From the NCBI GenBank assembly GCA_008632985.1, contig QPGO01000017.1, positions 62,001 to 126,000 on the forward strand: DNA of 64,000 nt, read 5' to 3'. Both the position numbers and the translations under genes were made by a program. Shown here one piece after another: positions 9,921 through 64,000 of the stretch; position 1 is the stretch's first letter; each line of letters opens with the position of its first letter. This DNA comes from Psammoneis japonica (lineage: Eukaryota). The notes beneath the pieces are model-generated. The model saw only the letters and a program-made list of their open reading frames with translations. It searched no databases and was not told the DNA's origin.

Positions 9921-11236
9921 ACTTCTGTGTCGAGGACGGCCTCTGCTAGCTCCTAATGTAGAGATGGGTTCTGTAACCTGCCTGCTGTTCTTTAGAGTGC
10001 AGTCTACTGGGACCGTACATTACTTGCTACAAAAAATTAGAAAAAACCATGTGGTGCCGGGCGGAGAGTGCGTAAATTTCTAGAGCAGTGTGGACATGCG
10101 AGCAGAGCAGCACAGCCAGGTCCCTGGCAAGGATTTGGTCCCTCTGTTGGAGACATCTTGTGTCCCTGGCAGAGCTCACCAACCCGCAATGAGTTGCAGG
10201 GGGTCTCGGTGTCACTCCAACTCCCATCTTCAACAATGGACGGTGCCTTGCAGATGAAAAACTGCTGGATGTGTCTCCATTTCAAACAACAAGAACAACA
10301 CATTGATGAAACCCCCACTTCCAGTCAGAAAAGAAAAGGATGGTGCTTTTGATGATGACAAAGATTGCCTTTCTGAATTCTGTGATTTGGCAAGTTGGTC
10401 ACAGCACATGCATCTGGTCAGACAGTGAAGAAATTCTTCCCTTGACCACTTCCCAACAACAGCACAAATCATGTGTTGAACTCTGTGATCCAGCAAGTTG
10501 GTCATGACCAACTGATTCTTTTCAGCTGGTTGCCTCACAATGGTGGATCTTGGCACATCAGGGTCACCTCTTTTCAAGCAGTGGAGTTCTTCAGCTGATC
10601 CATCAAGTTGCTGCAAATTGTCAAACCAGAAACCCCACTCAACCCCATTGCAAGTTGCTGTCCTGCTTGAGAGTGCAGCCAAACCCCCTTGCTTGAAAAT
10701 GTGACAATGCCAAATGTGAGCAGACTCTGCCACAGGGTGAATTTTGGCTGACTGCTGTTTGCTGTGTTTTGCAGGAAGAGCCCATGACCATTTTTGAGAG
10801 AGGAGCTGGCTGGTGGTGTGCACGGGGACTCGTGTGCCCAAATTTTCCACACTCAATTTGCAGCGCTGTCCTCCCCAAACCCGTGCACAGGAGAGGCAAG
10901 CAAGCACCCATCTTTCAGCAGACAGCTGTGCAGTCTGCAGCTGGAGAGCATTCTAAGGTCACCTTGGCTTCCCTTCTTGTGTGTGTTGGGAGCACACATC
11001 AGGTTTTGACCTGTCGATGATCCCCCTGCTGTGATGGTGGTGGTGGTGACTGGCTGGAGTGGCTGCAACTTCTGTGTCTCGAGGATGTCCAAACTGCGGC
11101 TGGCCCCACGCAGTCAGGGTGGGCTCTGCAACCTGCCACGCTGCTCTAGCTACTAGCTAGAGCAGAGCACCTCTAAGTTACTTTGAAGCCAGTGGCTCTG
11201 GGGCCCAGCAGGGGCACTGCATGTACTTGCTGTACA
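9921..11236. mobile_element. Degraded ~1.2 kb repeat/TE relic bounded by degenerate direct repeats
   Basis: No TpA between 10083 and 10953 and few CpG. The flanks 9921-10031 and 11068-11236 share blocks such as ACTTCTGTGT(CT)CGAGGA and TGGG(T/C)TCTG(T/C)AACCTGCC. No credible ORF. Confidence 0.55.
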
Positions 11237-11491
11237 GTGCGGTGGCGGGGCGCCTGCCACAAAAAGTCGCGCGAGCAGTTTTCTTTCGCGCGAATTCGAT
11301 TGAACGCGAAGGAAACGCGCAGAATCGCGCAGAAGCCGAATCTTTTCCGTTGTCCTACGCAAGGATTGTACTGGAAAAGTGTATGTGGAAATATACTACA
11401 TTTCTGTACTGGTATTGGACTTCAACAAAAAGAAGCGTCACATCATGTGTGGCTGGAAAAAGGTCACAAAATTGCTTCCACAGCAGTCACC

Positions 11492-12802
11492 ATGAAATAC
11501 GTTCTTGCCGTTGCTGCCGCTATCGGCACGTCTGTTGCCTCGGCCTTTGTGCCCACGGCACCACGGGTGGCGTTTGCGCCTGCCAAGACTACTACTGCAG
11601 TGCGCATGGCCGAAGAAATTTTCGATCAAGAAGCTTTCATCCAAGAATCCAAGGATATGCGCCTGAAACATTTGGAGGAACAAGCAATGTTCGCCCTCAA
11701 GATTGCTTGCGAGAACTACGGTAATGCCGTCTTTCCCAACGCGATGATCGCTGGAGACTGTGTGATCACCCACCTTTTGCACCGAATGGGATACCTTAAG
11801 GACGGAAAGTGCAAGGTCATGGTTGTCGACACTTTTCACCTCTTCCCCGAGACGATGGAGTTTCTGAAGGAAATCGAAGATGCCTACGATTTCAAAGCTG
11901 AGGTATTTTGCGCTGAGGGCGTGCCGATTGGTGACAGGGACGCCTTTGATGCCAAATACGGAGCAAACCTTTGGAAGGAGGATATCGACGAGTACGACCG
12001 CGTCTGCAAGGTCGAGCCGTTCCAACGCGGGCTCAAGACGCTCGAAACCGACTGCATGATCAATGGACGAACCAGGTGGCAAGGCATTGAACGTGCATGG
12101 ATTGATATGTTTGAGAACGCGCCAATCGGGGGTGGGCTTGCTAAGTGCAATCCAATTGCATACTGGACGCTCGAAGATACTTTTGATTACATTGCCAAGT
12201 ACAATGTTCCTCACCACCCGCTTCACGCCAAGGGATACCCATCCATTGGAGACGCTAAGGACACGATTCCCATCCCTGAAGATGGCTCTGTTCGCTTTGT
12301 TGACTTCAAATTTGAAGGAGACAAGACAGCTTGGCTCGACTATGCTCAGGAACGAAAGGGGCGCTTTGTTGGCCTCGTCAATAAGGACGGATCAACCAAG
12401 TCTGAGTGCGGTATCCACGTTGCTGGTGCCGAAAAAACATGGGACCGGGATCTCTGGGAGGATGGCAGTGCTGTCAAGAAGGTTGAAACCAAAGAAGATG
12501 CTCTTGCCATTAAAACCTCTGGCAAGCCGTCCGTAATGGTTGTGTACGCTCCTTGGTGCCAATACTCGCAGGCCATGGAAGAAGAGTTTGAGAAGTTCGC
12601 CGCATCGACTGATCTCGATGTGTACAGCTTCCGTGGAGACGAAGTGCGCGACTTTGTCACCGCTGAGCTAAATACAAACTCCTTCCCGACTGTGAACGTC
12701 ATCAAGCCTGATGGATCTGCTGTCAAGTACGAATCGGAAGACCGCACGGTTGCTGACTTCAAAGCCTTTGCTGATGAAACTCTTGGTGCAGCTGTAGAGT
12801 AA
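11492..12802 (+). CDS. APR: Plastid-targeted APS reductase of the APR-B (Fe-S-less, PAPS-reductase-like) type with C-terminal thioredoxin-like domain, 436 aa
   Basis: Signal peptide plus ASA-FVP cleavage motif (MKYVLAVAAAIGTSVASAFVP). PAPS/APS reductase motifs VDTFHLFPET, KVEPFQRGL, NPIAYWT, HPLHAKGYPSIG, KSECGIH. YDRVCKVEP stands where Fe-S-binding enzymes have a CC pair. The Trx-like tail contains YAPWCQYS. Confidence 0.9.
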   Translation: MKYVLAVAAAIGTSVASAFVPTAPRVAFAPAKTTTAVRMAEEIFDQEAFIQESKDMRLKHLEEQAMFALKIACENYGNAVFPNAMIAGDCVITHLLHRMGYLKDGKCKVMVVDTFHLFPETMEFLKEIEDAYDFKAEVFCAEGVPIGDRDAFDAKYGANLWKEDIDEYDRVCKVEPFQRGLKTLETDCMINGRTRWQGIERAWIDMFENAPIGGGLAKCNPIAYWTLEDTFDYIAKYNVPHHPLHAKGYPSIGDAKDTIPIPEDGSVRFVDFKFEGDKTAWLDYAQERKGRFVGLVNKDGSTKSECGIHVAGAEKTWDRDLWEDGSAVKKVETKEDALAIKTSGKPSVMVVYAPWCQYSQAMEEEFEKFAASTDLDVYSFRGDEVRDFVTAELNTNSFPTVNVIKPDGSAVKYESEDRTVADFKAFADETLGAAVE

Positions 12803-12867
12803 ATTTCGTGGTTGTTATTCATATTTCAGTACTTGTGAAGCGAATGTGGTTTTAAAACTACTTTAAA

Positions 12868-14679: not shown

Positions 14680-16543
14680 GACGGAGAAGGAAGCTCAAAG
14701 TACAGTACTTCTACTTTCATACCATAGAACATTAACATTACATCACAACATTTTCCCAAAATCGCACTCTAAGCTCACACGACCGACTAGTCATGCCACA
14801 ACATGCCAGCCTAGTAGCACATGTGTCAGCGAGACAGGAACAAAGCGAATATAGAATAACGACCTTTCTCGTCGCGGTAGATAGAGTGTCTGTGTTGCGT
14901 GTGGTGTTGTTGTGTTGTGTTGAGTGTGTTGAGCCTCTTTTTCTGTGTTTCAATGTGATCGTACTCAAGTGCCCTAAATGTTGATGACGCGTAAAACGTC
15001 ATGACTCGCCATAGATATGACGGGTACGCGTCATACAGTACTGTACTGTGCGTCGATCGCCAAAATTGTACACGGTACATGATGTGTTCATGCACACCGA
15101 TTTAGACCTCTCGTGCTTTTCCCCCGCCGAGCTTGAATCGGACTGACGGCATAAATCTTACAGTTAACACTTAGGTTGTTCCTCCCCGAAAGCAAAAAAG
15201 CGCCAAGTTCAACCGTTCTTATCGAAGCTGACATGCAAACATTGGGTGTTTGTGGCGGGAAAACTTGCACAGCTTCTACGCGTGTGCACTGTGGGCGATG
15301 CACTGAGCAGGTTTCTGTGTCTTTTCCACGTGTGAAATCGCTGTAATTGCCCGGATTTGCTTCCCTCACCCAGAAATGTTTCTAGACAAAACCCAACATC
15401 TGTTTTTAAGGTGCTGTTGTGCTTCCGCCCAGCAACTCCGGCAACAAGCTGACCCACACTCCTGGCGCACACATGCGCAGTGCAGCACGGTTGGAAGTTT
15501 TCGCACCTTGTTGTCGTGTTGTTGTTGCGTGCTTTCCAAGTGGCAGTCAATGAAACAATTGTTGGAGGACAAGCTGAGCCAATCAAACCCCAGAAAAACA
15601 GCACAAAGCACACGTCAAGTGCAGCAGAAGACGAGGACGTGCTGACATTTGTTGACAGAGGCTCTTGAAGAGACAAGTTTTAGCGACGAAGCAGTGCCAA
15701 AAAAGACATCACGTGCATCGCCCACGATGCACATCAGCGATTTTGGCAATTTTCTGAATTTTGCATGTGCATTGTGCATGATGCACACCGGGAGCGGGGT
15801 TGAGGATGAATGCTGCATTCCACCCAAAATTTGTGTTGCATCAAGGGACAAATGACGTGTGTTTCTATGTGGATTGTGCACAAGCGCACTGGGTGTTGAT
15901 GATGCGCACAACCTCATGACTTGCCACAGATGTGACAAGGTGCATGTCACAGTGCACATTGCCAAAATTGCATGCAGAGGTAAAGCGCTAAAGACAAAAA
16001 TTCCATCCCAAAATTTGATTTTGTTTTGTGAGGAATGAGTGTCAAAATTGACACTTCTCCGACCCGCATTCTCAAAATCTGGATTGTTTTTGCTGCATGA
16101 AGACAAACATTTTTTTTCAATCAAAGAAGAAGAGCCAATTCATGCAGTGCATGCATGCAGCCACGAGGACATGTGGGAATGGCAGCGCTCCTCATCTTGG
16201 CTGAGGTTGTGCCGCCTGAGACAGAAAGATGTTTGTTGGTGGCAGTTGATTTGATGGTTCTGAAGGGACAAGCCTGTGCCATCTTCCTGCATGGGATGGC
16301 GTCGGCTCATCTGGCTGACATTCTTTCTAAAATTTGTTTTTGTTTTGCATCACAAGGTGTCACACAAAGATTCGTGTGCTGTTGTTCATGGCCACAGCCC
16401 GCAGCACTGATTCTGCGATGAGTGGACTGAGCGGAGCAAAGATTTTCAGTGGCAACTGTTTTGTCAACATGTCGAGCATCACAGAGAAAGAAGCATCAAA
16501 GTGTCTCAAACACATGCGGGGGAAGAAGGTTTGGGAGGTCAAG

Positions 16544-16660
16544 CTGCATCTCACACCACCAACGTGTCCAAAGACATCACAAGATTGCCTCTAAATCACA
16601 AACCAGAAAGAGTTGGATTTCAAGTTGTGGTGTCTTTGGACATGATGGTGTGAGATGCAG
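16544..16660. repeat. Imperfect inverted repeat (36-39 bp arms, ~42 nt loop)
   Basis: CTGCATCTCACACCACCAACGTGTCCAAAGACATCACAA (16544-16582) pairs with TTGTGGTGTCTTTGGACATGATGGTGTGAGATGCAG (16625-16660). Confidence 0.8.
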
Positions 16661-17537
16661 TTTGGCTGCTGCAGTCAACGTCTGCATGTTTTGTTGGTCT
16701 CACAAAGAGACATCATCATCACCCAGCTCCTCCAAGTCATGCTTGGTGTCAAGTCCCAGGAAAATCAGTTCAAGAATTTCTGTGGGATTCACCCACTCTA
16801 CAGTGTTTGGGAGTGCAGAGGTCTGCACATGTGAAGACAATTTTTTGTCACATAGAAATCCATGCAATGAGTGCATGGCATGTTTCCATGTCCGACCTCC
16901 AACTCCCTGCCAGATTTCAAGATGCTTTTGGTTGATTCAAGCCGGCTTAAAATGCTTTTTGCAAAAAGATCAAAAAAACAACAAAATTCGTGCACCGCTG
17001 CGCAACTTGGCACCTGGCGTTGACGTCATGGCGATGCAACCAACAGCCAAAACTTGCACATGCAGACCTTGGCACTAAATTTTGTGCATGTAAAATGCAT
17101 CAGCTTCTGACCATTTTCTTTCTTCTGAATGCTGGGGAGTGGGGGCTCACTGCACCCAAACAAAAATCTTGCCACGGGTTTGGGTCGCGCACGAGTGTGG
17201 TGATTTTGCACATTTTCTGCACAATGACCTCTGGCGCCCAATTTGCACTGCTTGCTCTGTGTCAATCCTCTGTGCAGCATGCAAGTCTTTGCATGACACC
17301 TCAAGCAACTTCAAACTGGCATGGCAGGCACACTCCGGATGAGTGCACAGACCATCACTGCAGCGACAAGCCAACCATCTGTCGCAGAACATGACTCAAG
17401 CGGGACTCAAGTGATTGGGTCCCAGTCACGAGTGAAGGGTCGTGCCACCGATGACCACAGAAATCGGAGCCGACCACGAATGCCGCAATCGATCTTGAGG
17501 AACAAGATGTCAATGAATTGAATGGCTGAGGAGTGGC

Positions 17538-17579
17538 GATTTGACAAGATTGATTTGGCAAGATTGATTTGACAAGATT
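17538..17579. repeat. 14-bp tandem repeat, 3 copies
   Basis: GATTTGACAAGATT GATTTGGCAAGATT GATTTGACAAGATT. Confidence 0.85.
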
Positions 17580-19735
17580 GAAGTCCAGAAGAAGCAGAAA
17601 AGTGGATCATAATTTGGCGAGAGTGAGAAAAGTGAAGACTGTCAATTTTGGTTTTGTGTGCTGCTGATGAGGTGTCAGCGGCATCGGCATCTGGTTGTCC
17701 AACAACCATTGCTGAAACTGACACGGAGAACTTGCAAAAAAACTGCCGGAGCCAATGATGGCATTGACACGGCAGACAAGGTGTCTGGACATTGGTCATT
17801 TTTTGGACCATTGCAACAGAAGCTTCATCAGACCCTCATCAACACACAGTTGTGACCATCCATTCGGAGACGCACATTGTGATGCCACGCTGCATGCAGA
17901 CAATGCATCAACTGACCATTTTCCGGATTTTCAGCACCCACTGAGTTAAAGTCCAAGTTTGTAAAAAGGCAAGTAAATTGAAAATCAAAATGGTGCTGTC
18001 AATGTGTCGAAGGCTCTCACCAATTGTTGTCTCACTCAACTTTCTCTTGCCGTTGCAGCCACATCAGAGGCAGCAACACAGTGGTTTTCAATTTTCTGCG
18101 TGCAAATGTTGCCAATTGCAGCCAATTTTGTTGTGCCTTTAATTGTCATTTTCGCACATAAATTGAAACAACACACTCAACTTGTTAAATCCGTTTTATG
18201 CCGACATTTGTTGTCCATTTGTGTTTGATCATTCTTGACAATTTAATTTGATTTTCGCTTTCATTGGATTTTGTAAATTTCCATTTGATCTTAATGTTGC
18301 ATTTGCACTGAACCAACATCTTTGATTTTGGTTTTTAACATCTCCACATCATGCACACCCCACCGTGTTGACTGGCACATCCTCTGCTGTTCGGTGTGCT
18401 CCAGTCTCCCCCATGCACATTTCCAGTGTCATTTTTCCAGCACCTCCCGGAATTTCTGTGCATGTGTCTCTGCCCTGCTTCGGGCACTCATTCTACATGC
18501 GCAATCATCTGCGCAATTCATGACAGCACATCCTCTCCCCAAACTGCTTTCCACCTGAGCATGTGCTGTTGTCATCCACGCACCTTCTACACGAATCACA
18601 ACTGACCTCTTGCCATGGCGGTCAATGACTTTACCCCGTCTCACGACAAGGTCGACCCGATCCTTCCTTCCAATTTCCTGATGAATGTGATTTTGATGAC
18701 ATGGAATGTTTTGCCAATGGTTTTGGAATGGAGTTGTTTGGTCCCAAGCTCAAAAGCACAGCTTCAATGCGTGCATCCAAAAAGCAGTTTTTGGAATCAA
18801 CGAAATGGACTCCCTCTCCACAATTTCTCGCTCTTCCCTTCCTTTGCCACAAGCCAAAGTCACGTCGAATTCCACATGTCGCGGAAGTTGTCCGCGCCAA
18901 CAATGTCATCAGGAAAACTCTTGGATGCCCTGACGTTTGGTCTTGCATCAAGACTCGTGGTTGGTCCCTGAAGAAATCCCGCTCGCTGAAAGGTCAACAC
19001 TGCCTTCATTGTCGAAATTTGGACAAAGCTCTCTGTTTCTCCAAAACACCCAGAGAGACAGTTAAACAAGAAGAGCACCGTGTGAATCTTCACTGCAACA
19101 TCAAAGCCATGGTGGAATTTGTCCACACGATTGTTGCCAGTGACGACCCAAATGATCCCGTTTCCGGCAAGCCTTGTTTCTGGTTTCTAAAGGAAGACAA
19201 TCTCAAAAAAACTGATCAACGACCGTGCACAAGACCTTCACGGTGCATTTTTTGTCACCGAAATCGCAACGCGTCACGTTCAGCACAAACAAAATGACTT
19301 CGACTGCTGGTTCATGCAGATTTTTTGCCATGTCCAATCGCAAAAGGAGTGGCGCCTGTTCGTCAACAGCTTTCTTGTGCCATGCGATTCTAATGACCCG
19401 GGCTCTCAGGTGGGTGACATTGAGGAATGCCTCACTCCAGACCAAATCGGCAACACAAAGAACAAAGTGACAATGGCTGGTGATTCCCTTGCCCATCGGG
19501 AGGTGCACGAAGAAAAAACAAATTCCATGTTGAACCAAGAATTTGGGAAGCGCTGTCCCAAGGAACAACCCGGCACATGACCCAAGTGCAGCAAGTTGCT
19601 CACAATCCTTCGATGCAGAATGCGTGATCAGAGGGCTGACTGCATGGATGATGACAACAAACGAGAGCATCAATCCAAAACCAAACGCAAAATTGGGAGG
19701 ACCCGCAAAGACGGCACCTGTTTGTACGATGGTGC

Positions 19736-52895: not shown

Positions 52896-53267
52896 AGAGA
52901 AAGCTAAAAAGTTCAATCGTGGTGCAGATGGCAGTCGATCAAAAGAGTCTTGCTGGCAAAAAGTTGCAGCTCTTGGTCTCTTCGAAGACCGTTGAATCGT
53001 TCCTGCAAGTGTCCGAGTTCCTCATTGATGTGTGGCCTCTTGTCCTCCTAAACTCCCTCGCTAAAACGAATTGCGACGTGCAAGCTTCCAAGAGATTGCA
53101 CGGTGTCCAGAGATCTTTGTCTTGGTTGCATGGCGGCCAAAGTCCTCGGGTTGTCACAGAAACATCGTCTCTTTCAAACATTCGCAAGAGGAGCTCTTTG
53201 TCCGTTTTTGACACTTTTGCACCTCTTTTGAATGCAGCACAAACAACTCGACTGTCTTCATCCATGC

Positions 53268-53429
53268 AATCATGTTGGTCGTGGTTGGCACACAATGACG
53301 TCATTCAGAGAGAGGTTTTCAATTTTCCAAAGCAGTTTTGGAGGGGTTGGGACCGGAAATCATGTCGGTCGTGGTTGGCACACAATGACGTCATTTAGAG
53401 AGAGGTTTTCAATTTTCCAAAGCAGTTTT
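53268..53429. repeat. 72-bp direct repeat, 2 copies (90-bp period) in the 3' noncoding part of the Ginger-like element
   Basis: 53268-53339 and 53358-53429 differ at only two positions (53276/53366 and 53306/53396). Confidence 0.9.
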
Positions 53430-55029: not shown

Positions 55030-56825
55030 AGGACTGAGGCGAGCGCGCGGCTGCATGAAGTTAGGCGGGACTCATTCAGTCACGTATGCGCACACACTCT
55101 CCGAACGCCACTCACCATGAGAATCGGAACGGCATTTCATGCTATTGTAAAACCTTTTCAACAACAGCAGTGCTTTAGAATAGTTTCTACCATCTTATAG
55201 AAACTATTTTCATCGCTTGTTTGAAGGTAATTGCTCAATCGAAAGGTCAAAAAATGGATTTTGTAATTGCACCACCATCCGCTGCTCTTTTTCGTGTGCT
55301 GTCGCGATGCAATCGCACTGCGCTTTCGTGTCACTGACTCGTTCTTTTTATTTGATGCGCTCGTTTCATACACTTATATAGGGAGCATTTCGACCATGTT
55401 AAAAGCCCCAACGAGGAACACTGGCTCTTAGTTTCATGTCGACATTTGAGCCATTTGTCTGCGGCCGACATTTCTGCATCAATCGAAATGGGGCTGTTGC
55501 GTGTCATGCACAGTCTTTTGGATCAAGCCAAGCAACGGATGGTCGATTTCATTGATAATGTGGATTATGGTGTGCGTCATTTGATGGCAGACAACGGCAA
55601 GTGTATGATTTGTGGAGCTCACAACTTGCTGCCGCGAGAAATGATGACACTCACCTCGAACGCAAGCAACCAACGACACTTTCTTGCTGTTTTGCATTTT
55701 TCTTGCTCATTGTTGAAAGCTTTGGGTGCTTGTCGCTTCACTGCGGTTCACGCCGGCTCAGTTGGCACACTTTCCAAAGGCCTGTCCAATCGAACAACTT
55801 CGAGAGCAGGTCAATGCGTTCGTAGATTGCCGTTCGGACGTGACCGCTTGGAATGTTGAGAAACTTGCGAGCCACCTCAGACTCCAGTGCGTCAACCCTT
55901 TGCGACTTGTTGCTCTCACCTCCTCCTCTTTCTTCTTCTTCTTCTTGTCCTCCTTCATTCACAGGTTGGCGTTGAGTGGATTGGGCAGCTTGGGACTCGG
56001 CAACACCGGATTGGCGTTGAGTGGATTGGGCAGATTTGGCAGCTTGGGACTCGGCAATGCAGGATTCATGTGCACGAGTGCTGTCATCTCCTCCCCCTTC
56101 TTCTCCATTCACAGGTTGGCATTGAGCAGATTGGGCAGCTTGGGACTTGGTGTCACCGGATTGGCGTGTGCGAGTGCTGACACAGAGCCAATCTTTCTCG
56201 CATGTTTGCTGCCAAGAATGCCGCGGGATTTCACACGGCAATTTGACCAACGATTTGTGCAGGGACACAAATTAAAAGAGATGCTGAGCATTGGAGATGC
56301 AGTTGCTTTTCTTGTTCTTGATCTTGACGCTTTTCAATGCACTCATGACACGCACCTCGGCACCGGGTCATGGAGCTTCTAGATGGGGTCCATGTTCGGG
56401 ATGCTTTTTTCAATTCGGCATTCATTTGTGTTGCCTTGACATCTTTGTCCACACCCCGGAGCTTCAACTCCGTCAACCAAGCATCGGCGCTGACCCAATG
56501 CCCAACAAAAGACGACGTTTTCCATGGCTTTGTCGCGTCGTCGAACGCTGCGTGGATCGTTCTTTGTTTTGGCGCCATTTCATCAAATCAGCTGCACCCT
56601 GCACCTGATGCACAAAGTGGACCAGCTGGGCATGGGTGGTTCACAAACACTGGTTGGGTGCAGTGAATGTTGTTGCCAGCAAAAGTCATTTGCACCGGCA
56701 TGCCATTGTCGCACCCGTCATCATTTTTTCCCGCGGTGGCACCGCGGTGTCCAGATGGAAGTGTTGACAAGTCCCGAGCAGGCAGGACTCAAAACTTCAT
56801 GCAGCCGCGCGCTCGCCTCAGTCCT
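55030..56825 (-). mobile_element. Non-autonomous TIR DNA transposon, 1,796 bp, 33-bp perfect TIRs, TA target duplication (Tc1/mariner-like geometry)
   Basis: AGGACTGAGGCGAGCGCGCGGCTGCATGAAGTT (55030-55062) and its exact reverse complement at 56793-56825. TA at 55028-55029 and 56826-56827. A broken minus-strand ORF starts MAPKQRT at 56578, with internal short repeats at 55957-56167. Confidence 0.8.
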
Positions 56826-58276
56826 TAAAAAGCACAAAACAATTGTGGACGCCTGTAGAATCTGCATGTTTTTGTGCTGAAACTGTTGTGTTCACACAAT
56901 TTGTGCAAAAATGGACTTGACTGTTGTCGGGTCAGGTGCATTTTTGCAAATGTGTTGAAGAAAAATGTGCCTGATCAGAAAACAGTCAAGTCCATTTTTC
57001 GCAAAGTTAAAATTCACTGAGAACAGACAGATGGACTTTTCAACAATTGTCTTGGCACTGTTCCACACATTTCTGTGCAAATGACTCCACAGCATGAAAG
57101 ATTGCTGTTGAGGTCATGCTTTTTTCGTCTGCCCGTGTGTCTTTGCTTTCACCGTGCCCCCCCCCCCCCCCCACGCAGCATGAAATCCTCAATCCGTGGC
57201 CATCGGAGTCGCACAAATGCACATCATCAACAATGACCCGCTCGCTGTGGTCACCGTTTGTGTGGTGTGGCACTTTCATTGGTGTGGTCGCATCCTCAAT
57301 TGTCTGAAACAACTCGTGACATGTGTTGGCTGACTGCAGACATTGCACGTGCAAGGTGTTGACATTTCTGCATGTTTGGATCTGCTTTCTGGCAGAAGAG
57401 TGCAGCTGGCTGGTGGGTGCAGCACTCTTGTGACAATTGCATGCATGTGGTGGTTTGGGATGAAAAGCACCAGGACTCCATTCACCCATTGTTTTGAGCT
57501 CTGAAAAAGACCAAGGTTTGGCTGCACACAATTTTTCGTGCAAAAGAAACAGGATCTCTGCCGTGCTTGTGCATTGTTTGAAGATGTTCTTGCGCATGTG
57601 AGAGAGCAAGAACAGCCCTCATCAAATGACCCATTTTGCTGTGTTGAGTGGAGTTTAAAGCTCTGCCCTTTTCTTCCCATTGTTGGGCTGTTCATGCTGG
57701 TTGATGGTTGTCAGCTTGCACAGCAGTGCATGCGCAGCACAACAACAGACTTTGCTTTGGTTCACACTGATGCACTTTGGCCCCAACTTCAGACTCAAAG
57801 AGCTGCTGCATTCATCAGAGGCCCGTTTCCATGAGTTGTCTTGTGGTTGGACCAATGGACAATGTTGCAGCCAGCATGTGTGAGTGTCAGCACATGGGTT
57901 CATTTGTGATGATGATGAATCACTGCCATTCAACACAAATCACACCTGTTTGCCACAAATGGGTGTGATTAAAAACAAAAAAATGTCCGTGCAAACCAAC
58001 AAATGTCCAGAGACATCAACAAACAGCCATCAATCCCAACAAGTGAGCTGCAACTCAATCAGTTTGCAATGCCGAACAAGCTGCTTTGCGGGATTTTGCT
58101 TGGCTCATTGTCGCCGACCAGGTGACAACCAAATGCAGTGCTGGGATTTGTTTTCAATCTTTGCTGTCAAAGTCAATTGGTTGACTTGTGTGTTCAAACA
58201 ATTGTCTCCATTGTCCCATCTCCATTCATTGCATGTGTTGCTGCTGCAATCAATTGTCAACGAATGTGAGTGCAAG

Positions 58277-59250
58277 TCATTGCCACTGAGCCAATCTCAA
58301 CTGAACTGCCATCAATTCCAGTTTCCAGATTTTGGCACAGTTGACATGGCGGTCATCTTCATCATCCAAGCCTTCTTGTGCTTCTTCTGCCACCCATCGA
58401 TCTTGCTCAGTTGCAACGGCTCTGTAGAGCTCTTCCCACTGGCCAAGGCATCTGCTCACAACATCTTGCTTGGTGTTTGTGACCATGTCAACAAAGAACT
58501 TGTTGGTCTTTGGTGACCACCCTTTGCTCTTCCTTGGTGTCTTGAGGTTTCCTTGGTCCCGCATTTCCGTCTGTGTCTTTTGACTCTGCTGCCATGAAAT
58601 GCTTGAGTGTCCTGACAACCTTTCTCTTCTTGCTGGGTGCATCCTCATCATCTCTGATCTTCTTGACCATCATGCCCAGTTTTGTGATGGACTCTTCCCT
58701 TGCATCCTTGAACTTCTGTTTCAGTTCTTGAGCAGGCACACCTTCCTCCAACGGCTTTTGTGGATCTTTCTGGAGCAGCACAAACATGCTCTTGTCCTGG
58801 TCATCCTTCTCCTTTGCTGTTGCAAGGTCTGGCATGATGATCTTGCACAGGTCCTTGCTTCCCTCTTGGTCTGTCAGGCCTCCATCATCAACCAACTCCA
58901 CATCGTAATCCGACATCAAAGACCCATCCTTGTTTTGGCTTTTGCAGTCAGCATGCCATGCATTGCAGTTGTTCTTGAGGAGCATGTGGGCAAATGCCTT
59001 GGTGCACACTGTGCTCATCCTCTTGTCCTTGAAGGCGCACGTTTTCCAGCATGTGTCTCTGACAATTGGGTGCAGCATGCAGTTGCAGAACATTGTTTGC
59101 AAAGCTGGGTTTCCCAAGCAATCTTGGAATCTTTCCATGGATGGCAAGATGCAGTTGTTGTCATCACCGCATGCACAGAGAGCTTCACTTGTTGCAACAG
59201 GGAAAGCAAGTGACAACACTGTCAGCAATTGCAACGGCTGCTTTTGTTGC
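58277..59250 (-). pseudogene. Frameshifted relic of the same TE-associated protein family as 24224-25417
   Basis: MFCNCMLHPIVRDTCWK..TVCTKAFAHMLLKNNCNAW, followed in another frame by KGWSPKTNKFFVDM..KQD. These parallel WFYDNVLKF..W, SDEALALLMMENCWKVW and SWKDEGMVRFNDL..KED. Confidence 0.55.
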
Positions 59251-62200
59251 ACCCTCCATTCAAGATGGTGAAAATAAATGAAAATGTTTGCTCCCAATGA
59301 GTCAATGTTGATTTCAATCTGGAAGGGGGTTGACGAATGTTTGCACGCATGCGCACACCATGAGATGGCGGGGTTTGATGACCTGTGACTCAACGCCTTT
59401 TCTGTGGGTCTCTGATGTTCCATGGCATGTGCCACAGCCAGAGCCAACTCTGCCTCTCTGCCCAGCATGCCCATCATCAGCCAATGTTTGAGCCTCTGAG
59501 GAGCCAGCACATGGCTGGCTGCCGGCAGAGCTGAGCATGCTGCAGAGCAGCAACTCTTCATGTGACACAAGTTGGCCTGTTTGTGCTGTTTTGATCCTGT
59601 CATCTTGTGCAAGAGCAGAGTTGATGAAGCTTGCCACCTGCTGACTCTGGATGAGAGAACAATCAGCAACAACTGCTTTTCCTGCAAATTGTGTGCAATG
59701 ATGATGAAACAGGAAATTTGACAGGCTTTGCCATCAACCGTGCTTTGCAATGACTGGTGGATCTGCTGTGTGCAGCCTAGAAAAATTTTCTTCTGCTCAC
59801 AGTGCCCAAACAGAAATCAGTCCCTTTGAGTCTTCCAGCAACAGTCAACAACAGTGCAGTGACTGCAGCCAGTTTGAAGCCTTGCAGTTCTCTGATGACA
59901 GTGCAGCATCTGCAAGAAACTGAGATCTGGGTTTTGATTTCCTCTGTCAATGGAGAGAGTGCTTCTAGCCTGGAGATCTTGCACACAAAGAAAGACAGCA
60001 AAACCACTTCTGCAATGCCACAGTTTGTAATTTGGAAGCAGAGAAAACAGCCCATGCTTTGCTTTGTCAAAGACCAGTCAGGAGAGAAATGTGTTGTCTG
60101 CCAAAGGCAAACCAGAGCACATTTCCAACTTTTTGGCAGCTTGTTTTTTGGTGCATTCTTTTCCTCTTTTCCCCAAGAATCAGCTGCCCACTGTTTTTCT
60201 TTCCTTCATGTGCTCCTGTTGAGCAAACCAGTTTTGTTTGTTTCTTGCTCTTTCTTGCTTCCAGCTTTCTCTTCCTGGCCTTCTGCCATTTTTTCTTTTT
60301 CTGCTGCAGCACTCTGCAGGCACTGATGAGCCAGCACCCATGAGCAACAGGATGAAGTGACAATGAATTGTTGCTGCACCTGCAACCCAAATGGCTGAGA
60401 CAATGCCACAGGTGTGCCAAATTCAAGTGCCCAAATGTTCTGATGTTTGGGATCTAGGAACAAGGTGAAAAAGAAGATTTGACAGAGAAAGCCTGGTGTG
60501 CAAAACACACTCGCACAATGACAGCTTTTCTTTGAGTGCAAACACAATTCTGCGTTCAACACATTGTTTTAACCACTGAGATGTTTTGCCAGTGGCCTGC
60601 ACCCCACTGGGAAAGAGGAGCAAACAGGCAACAAATGCATTGCTTTAAAATGCACAATGGCTGAGCAAAGCTTTCTGATGGCATCATCCATGCCTTGAGA
60701 CAATCAGCCATGCAACTGTTTTGAGCTCTGGGCACTCCTTTCTGTTTAGCCAGTTTTGTTTGTGACTGTGCATTTTACCACCACAGCAATTGCTGGCTTG
60801 CTGTTTGCAGCAGCGCACCAAAGCCATGTCTTTTGAGATCTTGCACCCAGAGATGAGCTGTCTTGAGACAAATTTGCCTGCCACCACAGTTGAAACAACT
60901 CTCAAGCTGTGCTGGACATGCTCCAGTTTGTGCACAATCACAGCTTTTGCAAGTCATCCAAGAAGTTTTGTGGAACCCACTCTGCACAGCTGTCAGTGAT
61001 CTGTTTGTCATTGCAACAACAAAAAACACAGTGCCAAGAAACAGCAAAAACTCACATGCATTGCAACTCAAGCTTGCAGCCATGGAGCTCAATTTGTCAT
61101 TGAAAATGGGGAGAACACAGTTGCAAGAAACAGCAAAAACAATGTTGGGGCCTCTGCCAAGTCAGACACAACAACCACCTGCCAGAAAGTGCAAGGTGTG
61201 TGACTTGAGTGTCATCGTGTAAGAGACAGATGCAAAGGTGGGGTCTGGAGGTCAAAAATCTTTCATAAATTCTTCACAGGTCTTGGACATGATGCTTTCT
61301 TTTTCATTCATCAGACAATGGCACTGTGCAGAAAACTTTGAAAGTTGTTGAGTGGATTTCCCAATGTCTCACAGCAGTGGCCCACCCAGCAGTGCCAGGT
61401 GAAATCAGATTCACAGTGTGTCATCAACAGTGATGGCAGAAGAACCAGGCAGTGGGGAAGTCAGAGCAGTGTGCGTGGCACTGATCACACTGAGGGCTGG
61501 AGATGCAGCAGTGGACAGAGCCTGCCAAGCACCCCAGTCATTGACTGCTTGGCAGACTGACAAGCTTCAATCATCTGGAGATGGGCCAATCTTCAGCCAC
61601 TTGCATCTTTGAATGGGTGGCAGAGGACATGGCAACATGAGCAACAAAATTCTCGTGGTGGCTGAGATGCAGGGCAGCAAGTGTCAGTGTGTTGGATGCC
61701 ACAACAAGCTGCAGCATCATGTTGTGGCCTGCAAGAGTTGTGCCAGGCACACACAATCTTTTGCCCACAACAATTTTTTGGCCACAAACCAAATGCAGCA
61801 AGTGTTGTTTGTCAATGTGGGCACATTGTGGGACAACCAAAGCTTGTCTCACATTGCAAACAGCAGCTGGGAGGTGGTCAAAAGAGAGGAGATGAGAAAC
61901 CACAGCAGCACTGGGGTTGCACAAGGGAGGGAAGTTTTGCTCACAACTTGACAATGGCGCTTGTTTTGGAGCTGTCTGATTTCTCTCAAGCACAGTGCAA
62001 GAAAACATGCAAAATCAAAGCAAGCAGAAGGCACAGTCAGAAAGATGTGCTGTTGGGCCAGCTGGTGGCTCGCAGAGTTCAACAGGGAAAATGTCCCACA
62101 GCCACCAGAGAGTGCTGCGCAAACTGCACCAATGCCAGCATTGTTGTCTGCAATGTGTGCTGCAAGAAGCAAAACCATCAAAGACAAGGTTTTTGATCCT

Positions 62201-62424
62201 CTGCCGGAAGCAAAATGTGCACGAACAAGTGTTGCCTCCCAACAATGGCAAGCAGCAGAAGCTCAAGTGCTGTCTCTGGATGGCAGTGCTTGTCTGATTG
62301 GCAGAATTCAACACACAGCAAAACTCCCAACTTGTGCACTTGACTTGCAGCCGACAAACAGCAGTGAGCTCAGTGCAAGCAGCAGAATGACATCTGCTTC
62401 TTTGTGCTGGCAAAAAGGAAAATG

Positions 62425-63085
62425 ATGATGGAGGTGAAGAAAAATGGGATAAAGCAGAAAATGAGCCACCACAAAAATGGCACAAAAGTTGATGAAGGGT
62501 TGGGAGGCCATTTCAGAAGGTGTGGTGAACTGCTTCTTTGAATTGGCATTGTCAAAATGGTGGTCTTGGACATCTTCGTTTGCTGCTGACATGCAACCAA
62601 AGGAAGAGGCAGAAAGCAAGGGTTGTCAGAACAAAAAGCAAAGAGAAAGGGGATGCTGCAGCTGCAAAAGAGGCAGAAAGGTAAAATGCCGATGATGGAG
62701 ATGAAGAAAAAAAGGGGACAACATGGAGAATGAGCCACTGTGAAAATGGCGCAAAAGGCAAGAGAGGGTTGGGAGGCCATTTCAAGAGGTGCAGCAAAGT
62801 GCTGTTTTGATGGGGAGCCATGAACCCCGTTGGTGTTGTCAGAAGGCTGGTCTTGACACCATTGTTGTTTGCTGACAGCCATGTTCAATGATGGAGATGA
62901 AGAAAAAAAGGGGACAACATGGAGAATGAACCACTGTGAAAATGGCGCAAAAGGCAAGGGAGGTCGGGAGGCCATTTCAAGAGGTGCAGCAAAGTGCTGT
63001 TTTGATGGGGAGCAGTGAACCCCATTGGTGTTGTCAGAAGGCTGGTCTTGACACCATTGTTGTTTGCTGACAGCCATGTTTAATG
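62425..63085. repeat. ~196-bp tandem duplication (62692-62887, 62888-63085) with a more diverged third copy from 62425
   Basis: ATGATGGAGATGAAGAAAAAAAGGGGACAACATGGAGAATGA...GCTGACAGCCATGTT(C/T)AATG is repeated. Confidence 0.9.
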
Positions 63086-64000
63086 TTTGATTGTGCTTTG
63101 CTCTTTTTCTGTCATGTGCGTGTGCTTCATGACAAACTGCATTCATGCCTGGACAAACCTGTGTGTTGTCAAAGTGTTGTCAAATCAGAAAGATGCTGGT
63201 TGAGAGTGGGGAGACTCATTGACATGCCAAGTGATGTGGTGTGTGAGGCAATGATGTGGGTGCCAGCACAGGAGTGATTGGTGGAGTTGCTTTGCAGAGA
63301 GAACATTCTTGCATCTGCAAGAGTGCTTTTTTGTGCAATTGTGAAATGGAACATCGTGCGGCTGCCATTGGTGTTGGTGCTTGTGGCAAATTGTTGCTTG
63401 GCAGTCTTGTCAGGAAGCAGCAGCAGCAGTGATGTGTTTGTGGAACAACCTCCATCATCAGCGGTTCAATCACGAGTCACCAGCCCTCTCTCAACCAGAC
63501 ACCCTGGGGCTTTTGTGCTCACCCGCCATCACCATGCACATTGTTGTGGATGTTTTCTTGCCTCTGACCTTCTCCCACCAAAGAGTCACATTCACTTTCC
63601 TCTCTGTGTGGAGTGTGCACGCACTTTGCTGTGCAACACTCCATGGCTGAAAAATGAAAAAAAATGAAAAAGAGGAGCAGGCAGTTGCAAAGCAAAATGA
63701 TGACAACACAGGCATCTCAAAACTCCTTGTTTCTGTGTGTCACTGGGATGGGCTTGTTTGAGATGGAATTTGTTTTGGAAAGTTTCTCCATTTCTCTCAG
63801 CAAGCACAGCAAAAATTTTGTGAAATCAAACTGAAAAGGCACAGTCAGAAAGATGTGCTGTTGGATGAGCTGGCAGAGTTCAATGAGGAAAACATCCTGC
63901 CAGAGAATGCTGTGCTGCTGACAATGATGTTGGTGTTGTCCACAGCATGTGCCACAAGCAGCAAAGCCGTTGAAAGACAAAACAGTGTGCTGTCTCCTCA

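What the first reader, a model, noticed from the sequence alone, without database searches (positions are those of the whole stretch)
10083..64000. Transposon-restricted TpA->TpG/CpA hypermutation: a candidate 'reverse-RIP' genome defence
Seen: every TE-like block (10.1-11.1, ~15.2-26.3, 48.3-54.6, 55.4-64 kb) is almost devoid of TpA, while the flanking genes and spacers are not. By eye there is no TA at all in 10083-10953, 61268-62449 or 63083-64000, about 20 in the 4.3-kb Ginger ORF and about 18 in 57001-64000. Paired copies differ as TA versus CA/TG: CATTTAGAG/CATTCAGAG (53396/53306), ATGTTTAATG/ATGTTCAATG (63081/62886), TGTAACC/TGCAACC (9972/11127), and the Ginger termini TGTTACG/TGTCACG. 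Established: fungal RIP turns CpA into TpA, and 5mC deamination turns CpG into TpG/CpA; neither removes TpA. Inference: a separate process drives A:T->G:C transitions at TpA in silenced repeats. Candidates are DNA adenine deamination (TadA/ADAT-like enzymes favour TA), oxidised thymine (hmU/fU) mispairing with G, or an error-prone polymerase such as pol eta. I cannot verify whether this has already been reported for diatoms.
Basis: partly seen in the sequence, partly recalled or inferred. Interest (0 to 1): 0.95.

Follow-up and report, generated by a model that had tools for sequence, protein, structure and literature searches.

The report
TpA-erasing hypermutation of diatom transposons
In this stretch of a diatom-like genome the transposon-derived DNA has had nearly all of its TA steps turned into TG or CA while neighbouring genes are untouched, a mutation signature so far described only in one 2026 preprint on an unrelated alga.

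Summary
Four blocks (10082-11146, 15408-26260, 48243-54520, 55430-64000; 26.8 kb) hold 141 TpA where 1,042 are expected from the rest of the window (TpA o/e 0.02-0.11 against 0.55-0.71). TpG and CpA rise equally on both strands.

It is mutation, not native composition:
- Copies outside versus inside the blocks differ by 14 TA->TG/CA changes against 0 in reverse.
- The Ginger-like integrase carries Cys or His where relatives keep Tyr.
- 41 of 44 metagenomic relatives of that element show no such block.
- Read-derived contigs reproduce the depleted sequence at single-copy depth.

CpG decay runs in the same blocks and supplies about half of the TG/CA gain. TpA loss is 2-5 times more complete.

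Loss depends on flanks. TTAA barely falls (0.80 of normal), and ATAT, GTAC and ATAC are almost gone (0-0.02). A 96-98 % identical tandem gene array is spared, so duplication alone is not the trigger.

The same TpA->TpG/CpA signature was measured directly in Bigelowiella natans in a 2026 preprint. My ten literature searches found nothing for diatoms. The enzyme is unknown; I rank adenine deamination first and thymine oxidation second. This is a new member of a very recently described kind.

The parts
10082..11146 (.). TpA-depleted block 1, lying between the alkyl-DHAP synthase gene and the APS reductase gene. Its right part (10800-11146) is a mutated copy of 9722-9990.
   Evidence: 1 TpA (o/e 0.02), CpG o/e 0.19, TG 1.83, CA 1.70. 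The pairing with 9722-9906 scores 120 against a shuffle maximum of 39.5; it extends to 9960-9990 / 11115-11145.
9722..9990 (.). Unmutated paralogue of the right end of block 1, starting 30 bp after the stop codon of the alkyl-DHAP synthase ORF.
   Evidence: 8 TpA here against 1 in the depleted copy. There are 6 TA->TG/CA and 3 CG->TG/CA differences and none in reverse.
15408..26260 (.). TpA-depleted block 2 (10.9 kb). It fills most of the gap between the LCM-GNAT gene and the Rpn10-like gene. It holds a long frame 19655-22675 (+) with one internal stop, and 22713-23873 (+), with no recognisable family.
   Evidence: 77 TpA (o/e 0.11), CpG o/e 0.65, TG 1.63, CA 1.52. No Pfam hit, no homologue, no Atlas hit. 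Tyr is 0-0.6 % in its ORFs.
14944..15075 (.). Unmutated paralogue of 15858-15977, which lies inside block 2.
   Evidence: Alignment score 123 against a shuffle maximum of 47. 10 TpA against 1. 8 TA->TG/CA and 8 CG->TG/CA differences; in reverse, 0 for TpA and 1 for CpG.
48239..54937 (+). Ginger-like cut-and-paste DNA transposon. Terminal inverted repeats are 48239-48260 and 54916-54937 (they start TGTTACG / TGTCACG). A 4-bp GATC duplication flanks it at 48235-48238 and 54938-54941. It is inserted into a palindromic unit whose intact copy is at 48097-48146.
   Evidence: Inverted repeat I4 is 27 nt and 89 % complementary. Termini and flanks were read. The two mismatches between the termini include one TA/CA and one TA/TG.
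48558..52895 (+). Degraded integrase-bearing coding region of the Ginger-like element, with one in-frame stop at 52131-52133.
   Evidence: blastx to relatives covers 48558-51146. There is a weak Pfam rve match (E 4.6e-5, 24 bits, below the 32.6-bit cut-off). 919 homologues at E<=0.001; the close ones carry PF00665, some also PF17921. Tyr is 0.52 % against a median of 2.9 % in 150 hits.
48243..54520 (.). TpA-depleted block 3, the mutated part of the Ginger-like element. It begins within 5 bp of the left terminus and stops about 420 bp before the right terminus.
   Evidence: 36 TpA (o/e 0.09), CpG o/e 0.47. There are 40 TpA in the 712 bp upstream and none from 48243 to 48947.
54521..55429 (.). 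Unmutated island inside repeated DNA. It comprises the right end of the Ginger-like element, 80 bp of spacer, and the left 410 bp of the 1.8-kb element.
   Evidence: 47 TpA (o/e 0.71), CpG o/e 1.30. It contains the most susceptible contexts (ATAT, GTAC, ATAC, ATAG), so context alone does not protect it. Read depth is about 800-900 against about 70 in genes.
55018..56826 (.). 1.8-kb element with perfect 35-bp terminal inverted repeats (55028-55062 and 56793-56827), inserted into another repeat.
   Evidence: The inverted repeat is 100 % identical over 35 nt. Read-derived contigs join 55017/55018 to 56826/56827, skipping 1,807-1,808 bp, which is the empty site in other copies. At 6 listed places other copies read TA where the window reads TG or CA.
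55430..64000 (.). TpA-depleted block 4, which runs off the end of the window. From about 59.3 kb it is at single-copy read depth and is the most decayed part.
   Evidence: 27 TpA (o/e 0.05), CpG o/e 0.30, TG 1.75, CA 1.84. Read-derived contigs are identical to the window over 59205-62721, 63051-64000 and 57191-57865, at depth 66-77.
28321..42050 (-). Negative control: tandem array of DUF7467 genes with 96-98 % identical repeats of 2.4-3.3 kb. It is not TpA-depleted.
   Evidence: Repeats at 98.1 %, 96.9 % and 96.5 % identity. TpA o/e is 0.38-1.06 in its 1-kb bins. Only 8 of 63, 13 of 75 and 13 of 83 substitutions between copies are TA/TG or TA/CA.

Best explanation
Transposon-derived DNA in this genome has undergone a context-specific point-mutation process after it arose. 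The genome is a diatom's, judged from the named relatives of one host gene. The process turns the palindromic step TpA into TpG or CpA, which is an A:T->G:C transition on either strand.

What is shown:
- The process acts on delimited blocks, not on genes, unique spacers or duplicated genes.
- It runs 2-5 times further than the CpG decay seen in the same blocks.
- It spares TpA flanked by T on the 5' side and A on the 3' side.
- It has destroyed the transposon proteins (Tyr to Cys/His).

What is inferred:
- An enzyme recruited to marked, probably methylated and silent, chromatin modifies a base at TpA. The modified base is then copied as the other transition partner.
- I rank adenine deamination to hypoxanthine first (about 0.35). 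This is the mechanism proposed for the same signature in Bigelowiella natans.
- Thymine oxidation ranks second (see rivals).
- The net effect is irreversible inactivation of mobile DNA. It is functionally like fungal RIP but chemically the reverse.

The confidence given below is for the mutational process itself, not for the enzyme.
For: Pattern:
- 141 TpA observed against 1,042 expected in four blocks.
- TG and CA counts are nearly equal in every block: 125/110, 1078/1051, 598/606, 1002/916.
- Dinucleotide budget per kb relative to the rest of the window: TA -33.7, CG -29.2, TG+CA +58.1. Every other dinucleotide is within 8 %, except AA/TT at +21 %.

Polarity:
1. Two sequence pairs with one copy outside and one inside a block show 14 TA->TG/CA changes against 0 in reverse, and 11 CG->TG/CA against 1.
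2. Where homologues of the Ginger-like protein have Tyr (1,029 aligned pairs), the window has Cys 18 %, His 9 % and Tyr 11 %. Five control homologues keep Tyr in 27-38 %, and Cys is not among their seven commonest residues.
3. By position, of 7 Tyr-consensus sites the window has 2 Cys (TGC), 1 His (CAT), 2 Phe and 2 Tyr. Eight controls show 0 Cys and 3 His at 102 such sites.
4. In 44 metagenomic loci encoding relatives of the integrase, TpA o/e near the gene is 0.27-0.81. None is as low as the window's 0.09, and 41 of 44 have no depleted 1-kb window.
5. Of the 40 read-versus-window differences listed (1,466 more were not shown), 8 are TA against TG/CA. In 7 of those the window has TG/CA and other copies have TA.

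Independent hits on either strand: 14 TG-against-CA doublets in 745 aligned nt of repeats inside the blocks, against a column-shuffle mean of 0.91 (0 of 2,000 shuffles reach 14).

Not an assembly-only artefact: read-derived contigs match the window with 0 differences over 59205-62721, 63051-64000 and 57191-57865, at the same depth as genes.

Context rule, as survival relative to the rest of the window:
- TTAA 0.80
- CTAA 0.43
- GTAA 0.24
- ATAA 0.12
- CTAC 0.10
- CTAG 0.09
- ATAG 0.07
- ATAC 0.018
- GTAC 0.011
- ATAT 0 (0 against 204 strand-symmetrised counts)
Of the 141 survivors, 104 have a TAA/TTA flank.

Precedent: TpA->TpG/CpA changes at about 1,000 times the background rate in integrated viral DNA of B. 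natans, with TpA-poor CDS enriched for DDE and reverse-transcriptase domains (preprint Results).
Against: - No enzyme, chromatin mark, DNA modification or de novo event was observed. No whole genome was available, and no RNA run was listed.
- The only reads come from one sample, are kept as contigs, and may be the data the assembly was made from. Platform independence is therefore not shown.
- The baseline for the context rule is host DNA, not the ancestral transposon sequence. AA/TT is 21 % richer in the blocks, which inflates the apparent survival of TTAA somewhat.
- Targeting is not understood. The left edge of block 3 coincides with the transposon terminus, but the right edge lies 420 bp inside it. 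A 0.9-kb repeated island is untouched.
- The position-level Tyr test rests on only 7 sites.
- The 3'-flank order found here (T >= C > G >> A) does not match what I recall of ADAR (3' G preferred) or the mixed 3' bases of ADAT targets. These preferences are recalled and were not tested.
Confidence: 0.85

Rival explanations
1. Thymine, not adenine, is the modified base. A TET/JBP-type dioxygenase oxidises T at TpA in silenced repeats to 5-hydroxymethyl- or 5-formyl-uracil, and the product sometimes pairs with G, giving T->C. Because TpA is palindromic, this gives the same symmetric TG/CA outcome.
For: The outcome is strand-symmetric, so sequence alone cannot tell it from adenine deamination. In dinoflagellates a TET/JBP enzyme makes 5hmU, most 5hmU sits on repeats and helps silence transposons, and older work found T replaced preferentially in TA and TC dinucleotides (PMC11572971; passages seen only). 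Mispairing of formyl-uracil with G is recalled, not from a call.
Against: TpC is not depleted here: TC o/e is 1.04 against 1.09, and CC is unchanged. 5hmU is not known to me from diatoms (recalled). No modification data exist for this organism.
Confidence: 0.2
2. The changes are a by-product of repairing methylated DNA. Deamination of 5mC makes T:G mismatches, patch repair recruits an error-prone polymerase of the pol eta type, and that polymerase mis-copies T next to A, as in the A:T phase of antibody hypermutation.
For: TpA loss and CpG loss coincide. Spearman correlation is 0.63 over 128 bins of 500 bp, and no bin with normal TpA has CpG o/e below 0.5.
Against: - The pol eta hotspot is WA (recalled), so ApA should fall too, but AA/TT is higher in the blocks (o/e 1.26 against 1.11).
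- TpA loss is 2-5 times more complete than CpG loss, and 7 of 52 low-TpA bins keep CpG o/e at or above 0.8. The supposed trigger is therefore rarer than its by-product.
- No excess of transversions at TpA is evident. The dinucleotide budget closes with TG+CA alone.
Confidence: 0.07
3. The elements are natively TpA-poor, either through selection on the transposons or because they come from a TpA-poor source. No host mutation process is involved.
For: TpA is mildly under-represented everywhere (0.55-0.71 in host DNA). An earlier finding of this scan on a phage island judged a local TpA-poor, CA/TG-rich state to be a maintained bias.
Against: - Relatives of the same integrase family have ordinary TpA; 41 of 44 loci have no depleted window.
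- Conserved Tyr is replaced by Cys/His, and the frame is broken.
- Copies of one sequence differ by 14 to 0 according to position.
- At least four unrelated sequences share the state.
Confidence: 0.03
4. Sequencing or assembly artefact: a heavily modified base at TpA in repeats is misread as the other transition partner.
For: Only one sample is available, and it may be the source of the assembly.
Against: - Contigs built from the reads agree exactly with the window at normal depth over more than 5 kb of the most depleted DNA.
- The depleted copies also carry indels, transversions and CpG decay relative to their unmutated paralogues.
- An artefact would need near-complete modification and misreading at every site.
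Confidence: 0.03
5. ADAR-like editing of double-stranded transposon RNA, fixed in DNA by reverse transcription.
For: ADAR favours U before the edited A (as stated in the preprint's Discussion).
Against: - The best-defined element is a cut-and-paste DNA transposon with inverted termini and a 4-bp duplication.
- Non-coding relics and a duplicated gene flank are also hit.
- Both strands are hit equally.
- Copies differ by genomic position, not by lineage.
Confidence: 0.02

Closest known systems
   Same: - The same dinucleotide target and the same two products, on both strands.
- Confined to foreign or mobile DNA.
[quoted passage not shown] - In the preprint, TpA-poor CDS are enriched in DDE and reverse-transcriptase domains.
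   Different: - The host here is a diatom-like stramenopile, not a rhizarian.
- The targets here are transposon relics, and depletion is near saturation (o/e 0.02-0.11). The preprint's giant-virus region has Rho 0.45, and its virophage region is not depleted at all.
- CpG decay coincides here. The preprint text holds no mention of flanking context (term search).
- No de novo rate could be measured here.
Repeat-induced point mutation (RIP) of ascomycete fungi
   Same: Irreversible point-mutational inactivation of mobile DNA in blocks, leaving a dinucleotide signature and wrecked reading frames.
   Different: - The chemistry is opposite. RIP makes TpA from CpA, whereas here TpA is removed and GC content is unchanged (0.48-0.51 in blocks).
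- RIP is triggered by duplication. Here a 96-98 % identical tandem gene array is spared, and a now single-copy relic is the most mutated.
CpG decay by deamination of 5-methylcytosine in methylated transposons
   Same: It is present in the same blocks and yields the same products (TG/CA). It explains 29.2 of the roughly 58-63 per kb change.
   Different: It cannot remove TpA. TpA loss goes further than CpG loss in every block.
Deaminase editing of retroelements and viruses in animals (ADAR on dsRNA, APOBEC3 on cDNA)
   Same: Hypermutation of parasitic nucleic acid with a neighbour-base preference. ADAR prefers U before the A (preprint Discussion).
   Different: Those enzymes act on RNA or on single-stranded replication intermediates and leave strand-biased changes. 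Here resident chromosomal DNA of a cut-and-paste transposon is hit symmetrically.
5-hydroxymethyluracil marking of transposons in dinoflagellates (PMC11572971; passages only)
   Same: A relative within the same eukaryote supergroup marks repeats by modifying T, reportedly with a TA/TC preference, and this helps silence transposons.
   Different: That is an epigenetic mark, not a reported mutation signature. TpC is unaffected here.

Membership tests
TpA-targeted A:T->G:C hypermutation of foreign DNA (as defined in B. natans, 2026 preprint) | Changes are transitions at TpA only, giving TpG or CpA | tested here: met
   14 TA->TG/CA against 0 in reverse in polarised copy pairs. The dinucleotide budget closes with TA, CG, TG and CA alone.
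TpA-targeted A:T->G:C hypermutation of foreign DNA (as defined in B. natans, 2026 preprint) | [quoted passage not shown] | tested here: met
   Blocks have TpA o/e 0.02-0.11, against 0.70 in unique spacers and 0.60 in host ORFs. This was tested within one 64-kb window only.
TpA-targeted A:T->G:C hypermutation of foreign DNA (as defined in B. natans, 2026 preprint) | [quoted passage not shown] | tested here: met
   1-kb bins 16-26 kb, 49-53 kb and 56-64 kb all pass. The cut-offs were read.
TpA-targeted A:T->G:C hypermutation of foreign DNA (as defined in B. natans, 2026 preprint) | Directly measured de novo rate about 1,000 times background, in some lines only | not testable with these tools
   Needs mutation-accumulation lines or pedigrees. 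Only one sample's contigs were available.
Fungal RIP | C:G->T:A transitions that create TpA (CpA->TpA) | tested here: not met
   TpA is removed and CpA/TpG gained.
Fungal RIP | Any duplicated sequence above a few hundred bp is mutated | tested here: not met
   The tandem gene repeats of 2.4-3.3 kb at 96-98 % identity keep TpA o/e 0.38-1.06.
Pol eta type (WA-motif) mutagenesis | A->G at both TpA and ApA (motif recalled, not from a call) | tested here: not met
   AA/TT o/e is 1.26 in the blocks against 1.11 outside.
RNA editing fixed through retrotransposition | An RNA intermediate and a strand bias relative to the transcript | tested here: not met
   TG and CA counts are 598 and 606 in the Ginger-like element. 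The element has inverted termini and a 4-bp duplication.
Ginger1 DNA transposons (features recalled from Bao, Kapitonov and Jurka 2010; paper not seen here) | Inverted termini beginning TGTNR and a 4-bp target duplication | tested here: met
   TGTTACG and TGTCACG termini. GATC lies on both sides, and the intact target palindrome is nearby. Because GATC is palindromic, it could instead be read as part of the inverted repeat.
Ginger1 DNA transposons (features recalled from Bao, Kapitonov and Jurka 2010; paper not seen here) | Retroviral-type DDE integrase with an H2C2 zinc finger and no reverse transcriptase | tested here: inconclusive
   The rve match is below Pfam's cut-off in the mutated copy (24 against 32.6 bits). 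Relatives carry PF00665, and 3 of 9 also carry PF17921. No reverse-transcriptase match was found.

The most novel reading that the evidence does not exclude
Diatoms and chlorarachniophytes share an old, enzyme-driven genome defence that edits resident double-stranded DNA at TpA. The editing is adenine deamination or thymine oxidation, with a preference for TpA not flanked by 5' T or 3' A. It is aimed at chromatin domains rather than at sequence repeats, and it outruns 5mC decay. That would be a natural chromosomal A:T->G:C editor and a second invention of 'mutate the parasite' besides RIP, possibly spread across the stramenopile-alveolate-rhizarian supergroup. The block-wise signature in an unrelated microbial-mat contig (L022) hints that it is not confined to one species.
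Probability: 0.3. Interest if true: 0.92.

Novelty: new member of a known kind. Interest (0 to 1): 0.7.

Why it matters
**Breadth.** If this is the same process as in Bigelowiella natans, TpA-directed hypermutation of mobile DNA is not a curiosity of one alga. It would be a genome defence of major marine phytoplankton lineages.

**What this window adds to the preprint:**
- Near-saturated targets.
- A flank rule.
- Copy pairs that differ only by position.
- A clear separation from duplication-triggered RIP and from CpG decay.

**Base editing.** An enzyme that makes A:T->G:C changes in chromosomal DNA with a two-base motif would interest that field.

**Annotation.** TAA and TAG both contain TpA, so mutated relics keep almost only TGA stops. 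They show long false ORFs on both strands. Their proteins escape Pfam, so such genomes will be mis-annotated unless this is recognised.

Tried and rejected
**Whole-genome analysis.** No genome is held for this window. Genome-wide profiles and a search for deaminase, TET/JBP or polymerase genes could not be done.

**Expression.** No RNA holder was listed.

**Second platform.** Only three runs of one sample exist, all kept as contigs. Run X3 laid nothing.

**Identity of blocks 1, 2 and 4.**
- No Pfam family at E<=5, apart from chance-level hits.
- No homologue for 19736-21685 among 4,742 candidates.
- No Atlas hit.
- No blastx hit to the Ginger-like relatives.

**Close paralogues of the Ginger-like protein.** The best of 9 hits was 40 % identical, so no protein-level family alignment was possible.

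**Other attempts.**
- The Atlas search with the APS reductase showed only that the host is a eukaryote with plant- and alga-like relatives.
- A multiple alignment of 35 long proteins was too gappy (3,666 columns) to be more than a rough check. Pairwise tallies replaced it.
- Splitting TG/CA gains by flank, to decide which strand's A is hit, was too noisy. CpG and TpA feed the same products, and the baseline is host DNA.

**GC-biased gene conversion.** Rejected, because GC content is unchanged and only TpA and CpG change.

**Earlier findings of this scan.** Nothing for this genome or sequence, and only phage cases under 'TpA depletion'.

**Literature.** Ten searches and term look-ups in two diatom transposon papers (PMC2806351 and 10.1101/2025.10.24.684338) found no report of TpA loss in diatom transposons. 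The library is lexical and lacks most subscription journals, so this does not prove that no such report exists.

Full report
**What is there**

The window has 1,595 TpA. In 1-kb bins, TpA observed/expected (o/e) falls to 0.01-0.16 in 10-11, 16-26, 49-53 and 56-64 kb. Over the same bins the mean o/e of TpG and CpA rises to 1.5-1.97. Bins over genes give 0.4-1.06 and 0.9-1.3.

A two-state segmentation on TpA positions gives four depleted blocks:

| Block | TpA count | TpA o/e |
|---|---|---|
| 10082-11146 | 1 | 0.02 |
| 15408-26260 | 77 | 0.11 |
| 48243-54520 | 36 | 0.09 |
| 55430-64000 | 27 | 0.05 |

Four normal segments have o/e 0.55-0.71. At the density of the normal segments, 1,042 TpA are expected in the blocks and 141 are seen (log10 P about -270). 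Unique spacers have o/e 0.70 and long host ORFs 0.60. So the depletion is not a property of non-coding DNA.

**What the host and the elements are**

The host genes are:
- MinC
- an ACBP-aminotransferase-fatty-acyl-reductase-acyltransferase fusion
- an alkyl-DHAP synthase
- APS reductase-thioredoxin
- an LCM-GNAT protein
- an Rpn10-like protein
- a tandem DUF7467 array
- a sulfotransferase (all)

These are long uninterrupted ORFs. Of the 120 listed homologues of the alkyl-DHAP synthase, the four that carry an organism name are all diatoms: Attheya, Cylindrotheca, Amphora and a Bacillariaceae MAG, at 46-50 % identity. The best unnamed hit is 56 % identical. I therefore treat the host as a diatom without a close sequenced relative in that collection. 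It is not Bigelowiella.

Block 3 is a Ginger-like cut-and-paste transposon spanning 48239-54937.
- Its 27-nt inverted termini begin TGTTACG and TGTCACG.
- GATC lies on both sides.
- It sits in a palindromic unit whose intact copy is 100 bp upstream.
- Its 4.3-kb coding region (48558-52895) has 919 homologues. The closer ones carry the rve integrase domain, and some also the H2C2 finger.

The Ginger features are recalled from Bao, Kapitonov and Jurka 2010, which I did not see here.

A 1.8-kb element with perfect 35-bp inverted termini lies at 55018-56826. Read-derived contigs join its two flanks directly, which shows empty sites in other copies. Blocks 1, 2 and most of block 4 match no known family.

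**It is mutation, and the direction is TA to TG/CA**

Five lines of evidence agree.

1. *Copy pairs across a block boundary.* Two sequence pairs have one copy outside a block and one inside: 14944-15075 with 15858-15977, and 9722-9906 with 10800-11008. Together they show 14 sites with TA outside and TG/CA inside, and none the other way. They also show 11 CpG-to-TG/CA sites against 1 in reverse. The outside copies hold 18 TpA and the inside copies 2.
2. *Tyrosine loss.* Transposon ORFs have 0-0.8 % Tyr against 1.0-3.1 % in host ORFs, with raised Cys and His.
   - Where homologues of the Ginger-like protein have Tyr (1,029 aligned pairs), the window has Cys 18 %, His 9 % and Tyr 11 %. Five control homologues keep Tyr at 27-38 %, and Cys is not among their seven commonest residues.
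   - By position the sample is small. Of 7 Tyr-consensus sites the window has 2 TGC, 1 CAT, 2 Phe and 2 Tyr. Eight controls have 0 Cys and 3 His at 102 sites.
   - One of these sites is the conserved Pro-Tyr of the integrase core.
3. *The family is not natively TpA-poor.* 44 metagenomic loci encoding relatives have TpA o/e 0.27-0.81 around the gene, and 41 of 44 have no depleted 1-kb window.
4. *Differences between the window and other copies in the reads.* Of the 40 such differences that the tool listed (1,466 more were not shown), 8 are TA against TG/CA, and in 7 of these the window is the mutated one. 11 are CpG against TG/CA.
5. *Doublets in repeats inside the blocks.* These differ by TG-against-CA doublets 14 times in 745 aligned nt, which is 28 of 108 mismatches. 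Column shuffles give 0.91 on average and never reach 14 in 2,000 tries. This is what independent hits on either strand of one ancestral palindromic step would leave, although CpG can produce the same doublets.

**It is in the reads**

Contigs built from the one available sample match the window without a single difference over 59205-62721, 63051-64000 and 57191-57865. Their depth is 66-77, the same as gene regions. The sample may be the source of the assembly, and only contigs are kept, so this excludes an assembly error but not a platform-wide misreading. I rate the latter as very unlikely, because the mutated copies also carry indels and transversions relative to their partners.

**Anatomy of the process**

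*Strand symmetry.* The process is strand-symmetric. TG/CA counts in the four blocks are 125/110, 1078/1051, 598/606 and 1002/916.

*Dinucleotide budget.* Per kb, relative to the rest of the window:

| Dinucleotide | Change per kb |
|---|---|
| TA | -33.7 |
| CG | -29.2 |
| TG+CA | +58.1 |

All other dinucleotides change by less than 8 %, except AA/TT at +21 %. So two processes converge on TG/CA, and TpA loss supplies a little over half.

*Relation to CpG decay.* TpA and CpG depletion are correlated (Spearman 0.63). No 500-bp bin with normal TpA has CpG o/e below 0.5, but 7 of 52 TpA-poor bins keep CpG at 0.8 or more. From the block values, TpA loss on a log scale is about 2-5 times CpG loss. 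That factor is my inference from those values.

*Flank dependence.* Loss depends strongly on the flanking bases. Survival relative to normal DNA:

| Context | Survival |
|---|---|
| TTAA | 0.80 |
| CTAA | 0.43 |
| GTAA | 0.24 |
| ATAA | 0.12 |
| CTAC | 0.10 |
| CTAG | 0.09 |
| ATAG | 0.07 |
| ATAC | 0.018 |
| GTAC | 0.011 |
| ATAT | 0 |

Of the 141 surviving TpA, 104 have a TAA/TTA flank. The 2:1 excess of Tyr-to-Cys over Tyr-to-His fits a preference for a pyrimidine 3' of the changed A; this is inference. The baseline is host DNA, so the absolute values are rough, but the range from 0.8 to 0 is not.

**Targeting**

Duplication is not the trigger. The DUF7467 array has 2.4-3.3-kb repeats at 96-98 % identity and ordinary TpA. 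The most decayed DNA (59-64 kb) is now at single-copy depth.

Transposon identity is not the whole story either.
- Block 3 begins within 5 bp of the left terminus. There are 40 TpA in the 712 bp before it and none in the first 700 bp inside.
- It ends 420 bp short of the right terminus.
- A 0.9-kb island of repeated DNA (54521-55429) keeps TpA o/e 0.71 and CpG o/e 1.30, although it contains ATAT, GTAC and ATAC.

Together with the two position-dependent copy pairs, this points to a mark on the chromatin or DNA of a domain, probably the one that also carries 5mC. That is inference; no mark was measured.

**Mechanism**

*Shown:* a TpA-specific, strand-symmetric, block-limited A:T->G:C process that inactivates transposon genes.

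*Inferred:* an enzyme modifies one base of TpA.
- Adenine deamination to hypoxanthine, which is read as G, is the simplest fit. It is what the B. natans authors propose, with an ADAT2 homologue as their candidate. I give it about 0.35.
- Thymine oxidation by a TET/JBP enzyme is indistinguishable from sequence. It has a precedent in dinoflagellate 5hmU on repeats with a TA/TC preference (PMC11572971; passages only). But TpC is unaffected here. I give it about 0.2.
- Pol eta-type repair synthesis predicts ApA loss, which is not seen.
- RNA editing with retro-copying is excluded for a cut-and-paste element hit on both strands.
- Native composition is contradicted.

**Comparison with what is known**

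The closest match is the 2026 preprint on B. natans. In it, 230 of 231 new single-nucleotide mutations in two integrated viral regions were A->G or T->C, and all of these fell on TpA. The rate was about 1,000 times background. TpA-poor CDS were enriched for DDE and reverse-transcriptase domains.

This window meets every sequence-level criterion of that phenomenon. It adds a different supergroup member, near-saturation, coincidence with CpG decay, a flank rule and position-dependent copy pairs.

It works like RIP in effect but fails both defining features of RIP. My ten searches and two term look-ups found no report for diatoms.

**Verdict**

It is untested as to enzyme, silencing and defence.
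- This is a new member of a kind described once, very recently.

Noticed in passing
L022:801-6200, L021:1-2600, L002:1501-2500 (metagenome loci): Contigs from microbial-mat metagenomes that encode a 37-43 % identical integrase show the same block pattern. TpA o/e is 0.10-0.31 and TG/CA 1.45-1.75, with no ATAT, GTAC or ATAC, next to normal flanks (L022:6601-8438 has TpA 0.54-0.64). A related group (L002, L004, L007) has lost ATAT almost alone (2 counts, o/e 0.02). The signature may therefore occur in at least one other organism.
   Followed up: partly
window 54521-55429: A 0.9-kb island of repeated DNA between two depleted blocks has normal TpA (0.71) and high CpG (o/e 1.30). It spans the facing ends of two transposons and may be an unmethylated, protected region such as promoters.
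   Followed up: partly
window 9700-26600 and the other depleted blocks: TAA and TAG both contain TpA, so depleted DNA keeps almost only TGA stops. 39 stop-to-stop frames of 120 aa or more overlap this stretch, on both strands. The real transposon proteins escape Pfam. Gene callers are likely to over-predict and mis-annotate here.
   Followed up: partly
window 2435-9692: A 1,485-aa fusion (acyl-CoA-binding, aminotransferase, fatty-acyl reductase and acyltransferase domains) sits next to an alkyl-DHAP synthase. Some homologues of the synthase are themselves fused to the reductase and/or acyltransferase domains (e.g. P0202, P0175). This looks like an ether-lipid gene pair.
   Followed up: no
window 28321-42050: A tandem array of at least five DUF7467 genes on the minus strand. 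It has internal 177-nt periodic repeats, 96-98 % identical 2.4-3.3-kb units, GC up to 0.61 and strong GC skew.
   Followed up: no
window 53339-54672: Read depth is 4,300-8,300 against about 70 in genes. The stretch includes an 8-nt tandem repeat at 54323-54402. So the right part of the Ginger-like element is either a very high-copy sequence or a simple repeat that inflates depth.
   Followed up: no
window 48097-48238: Two copies of a 50-nt perfect palindrome unit form the insertion target of the Ginger-like element.
   Followed up: no
window 45832-45845: Three clustered differences are carried by about half of the read depth (59.9 of 113) in a non-transposon region. This is consistent with two alleles in the sample.
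   Followed up: no
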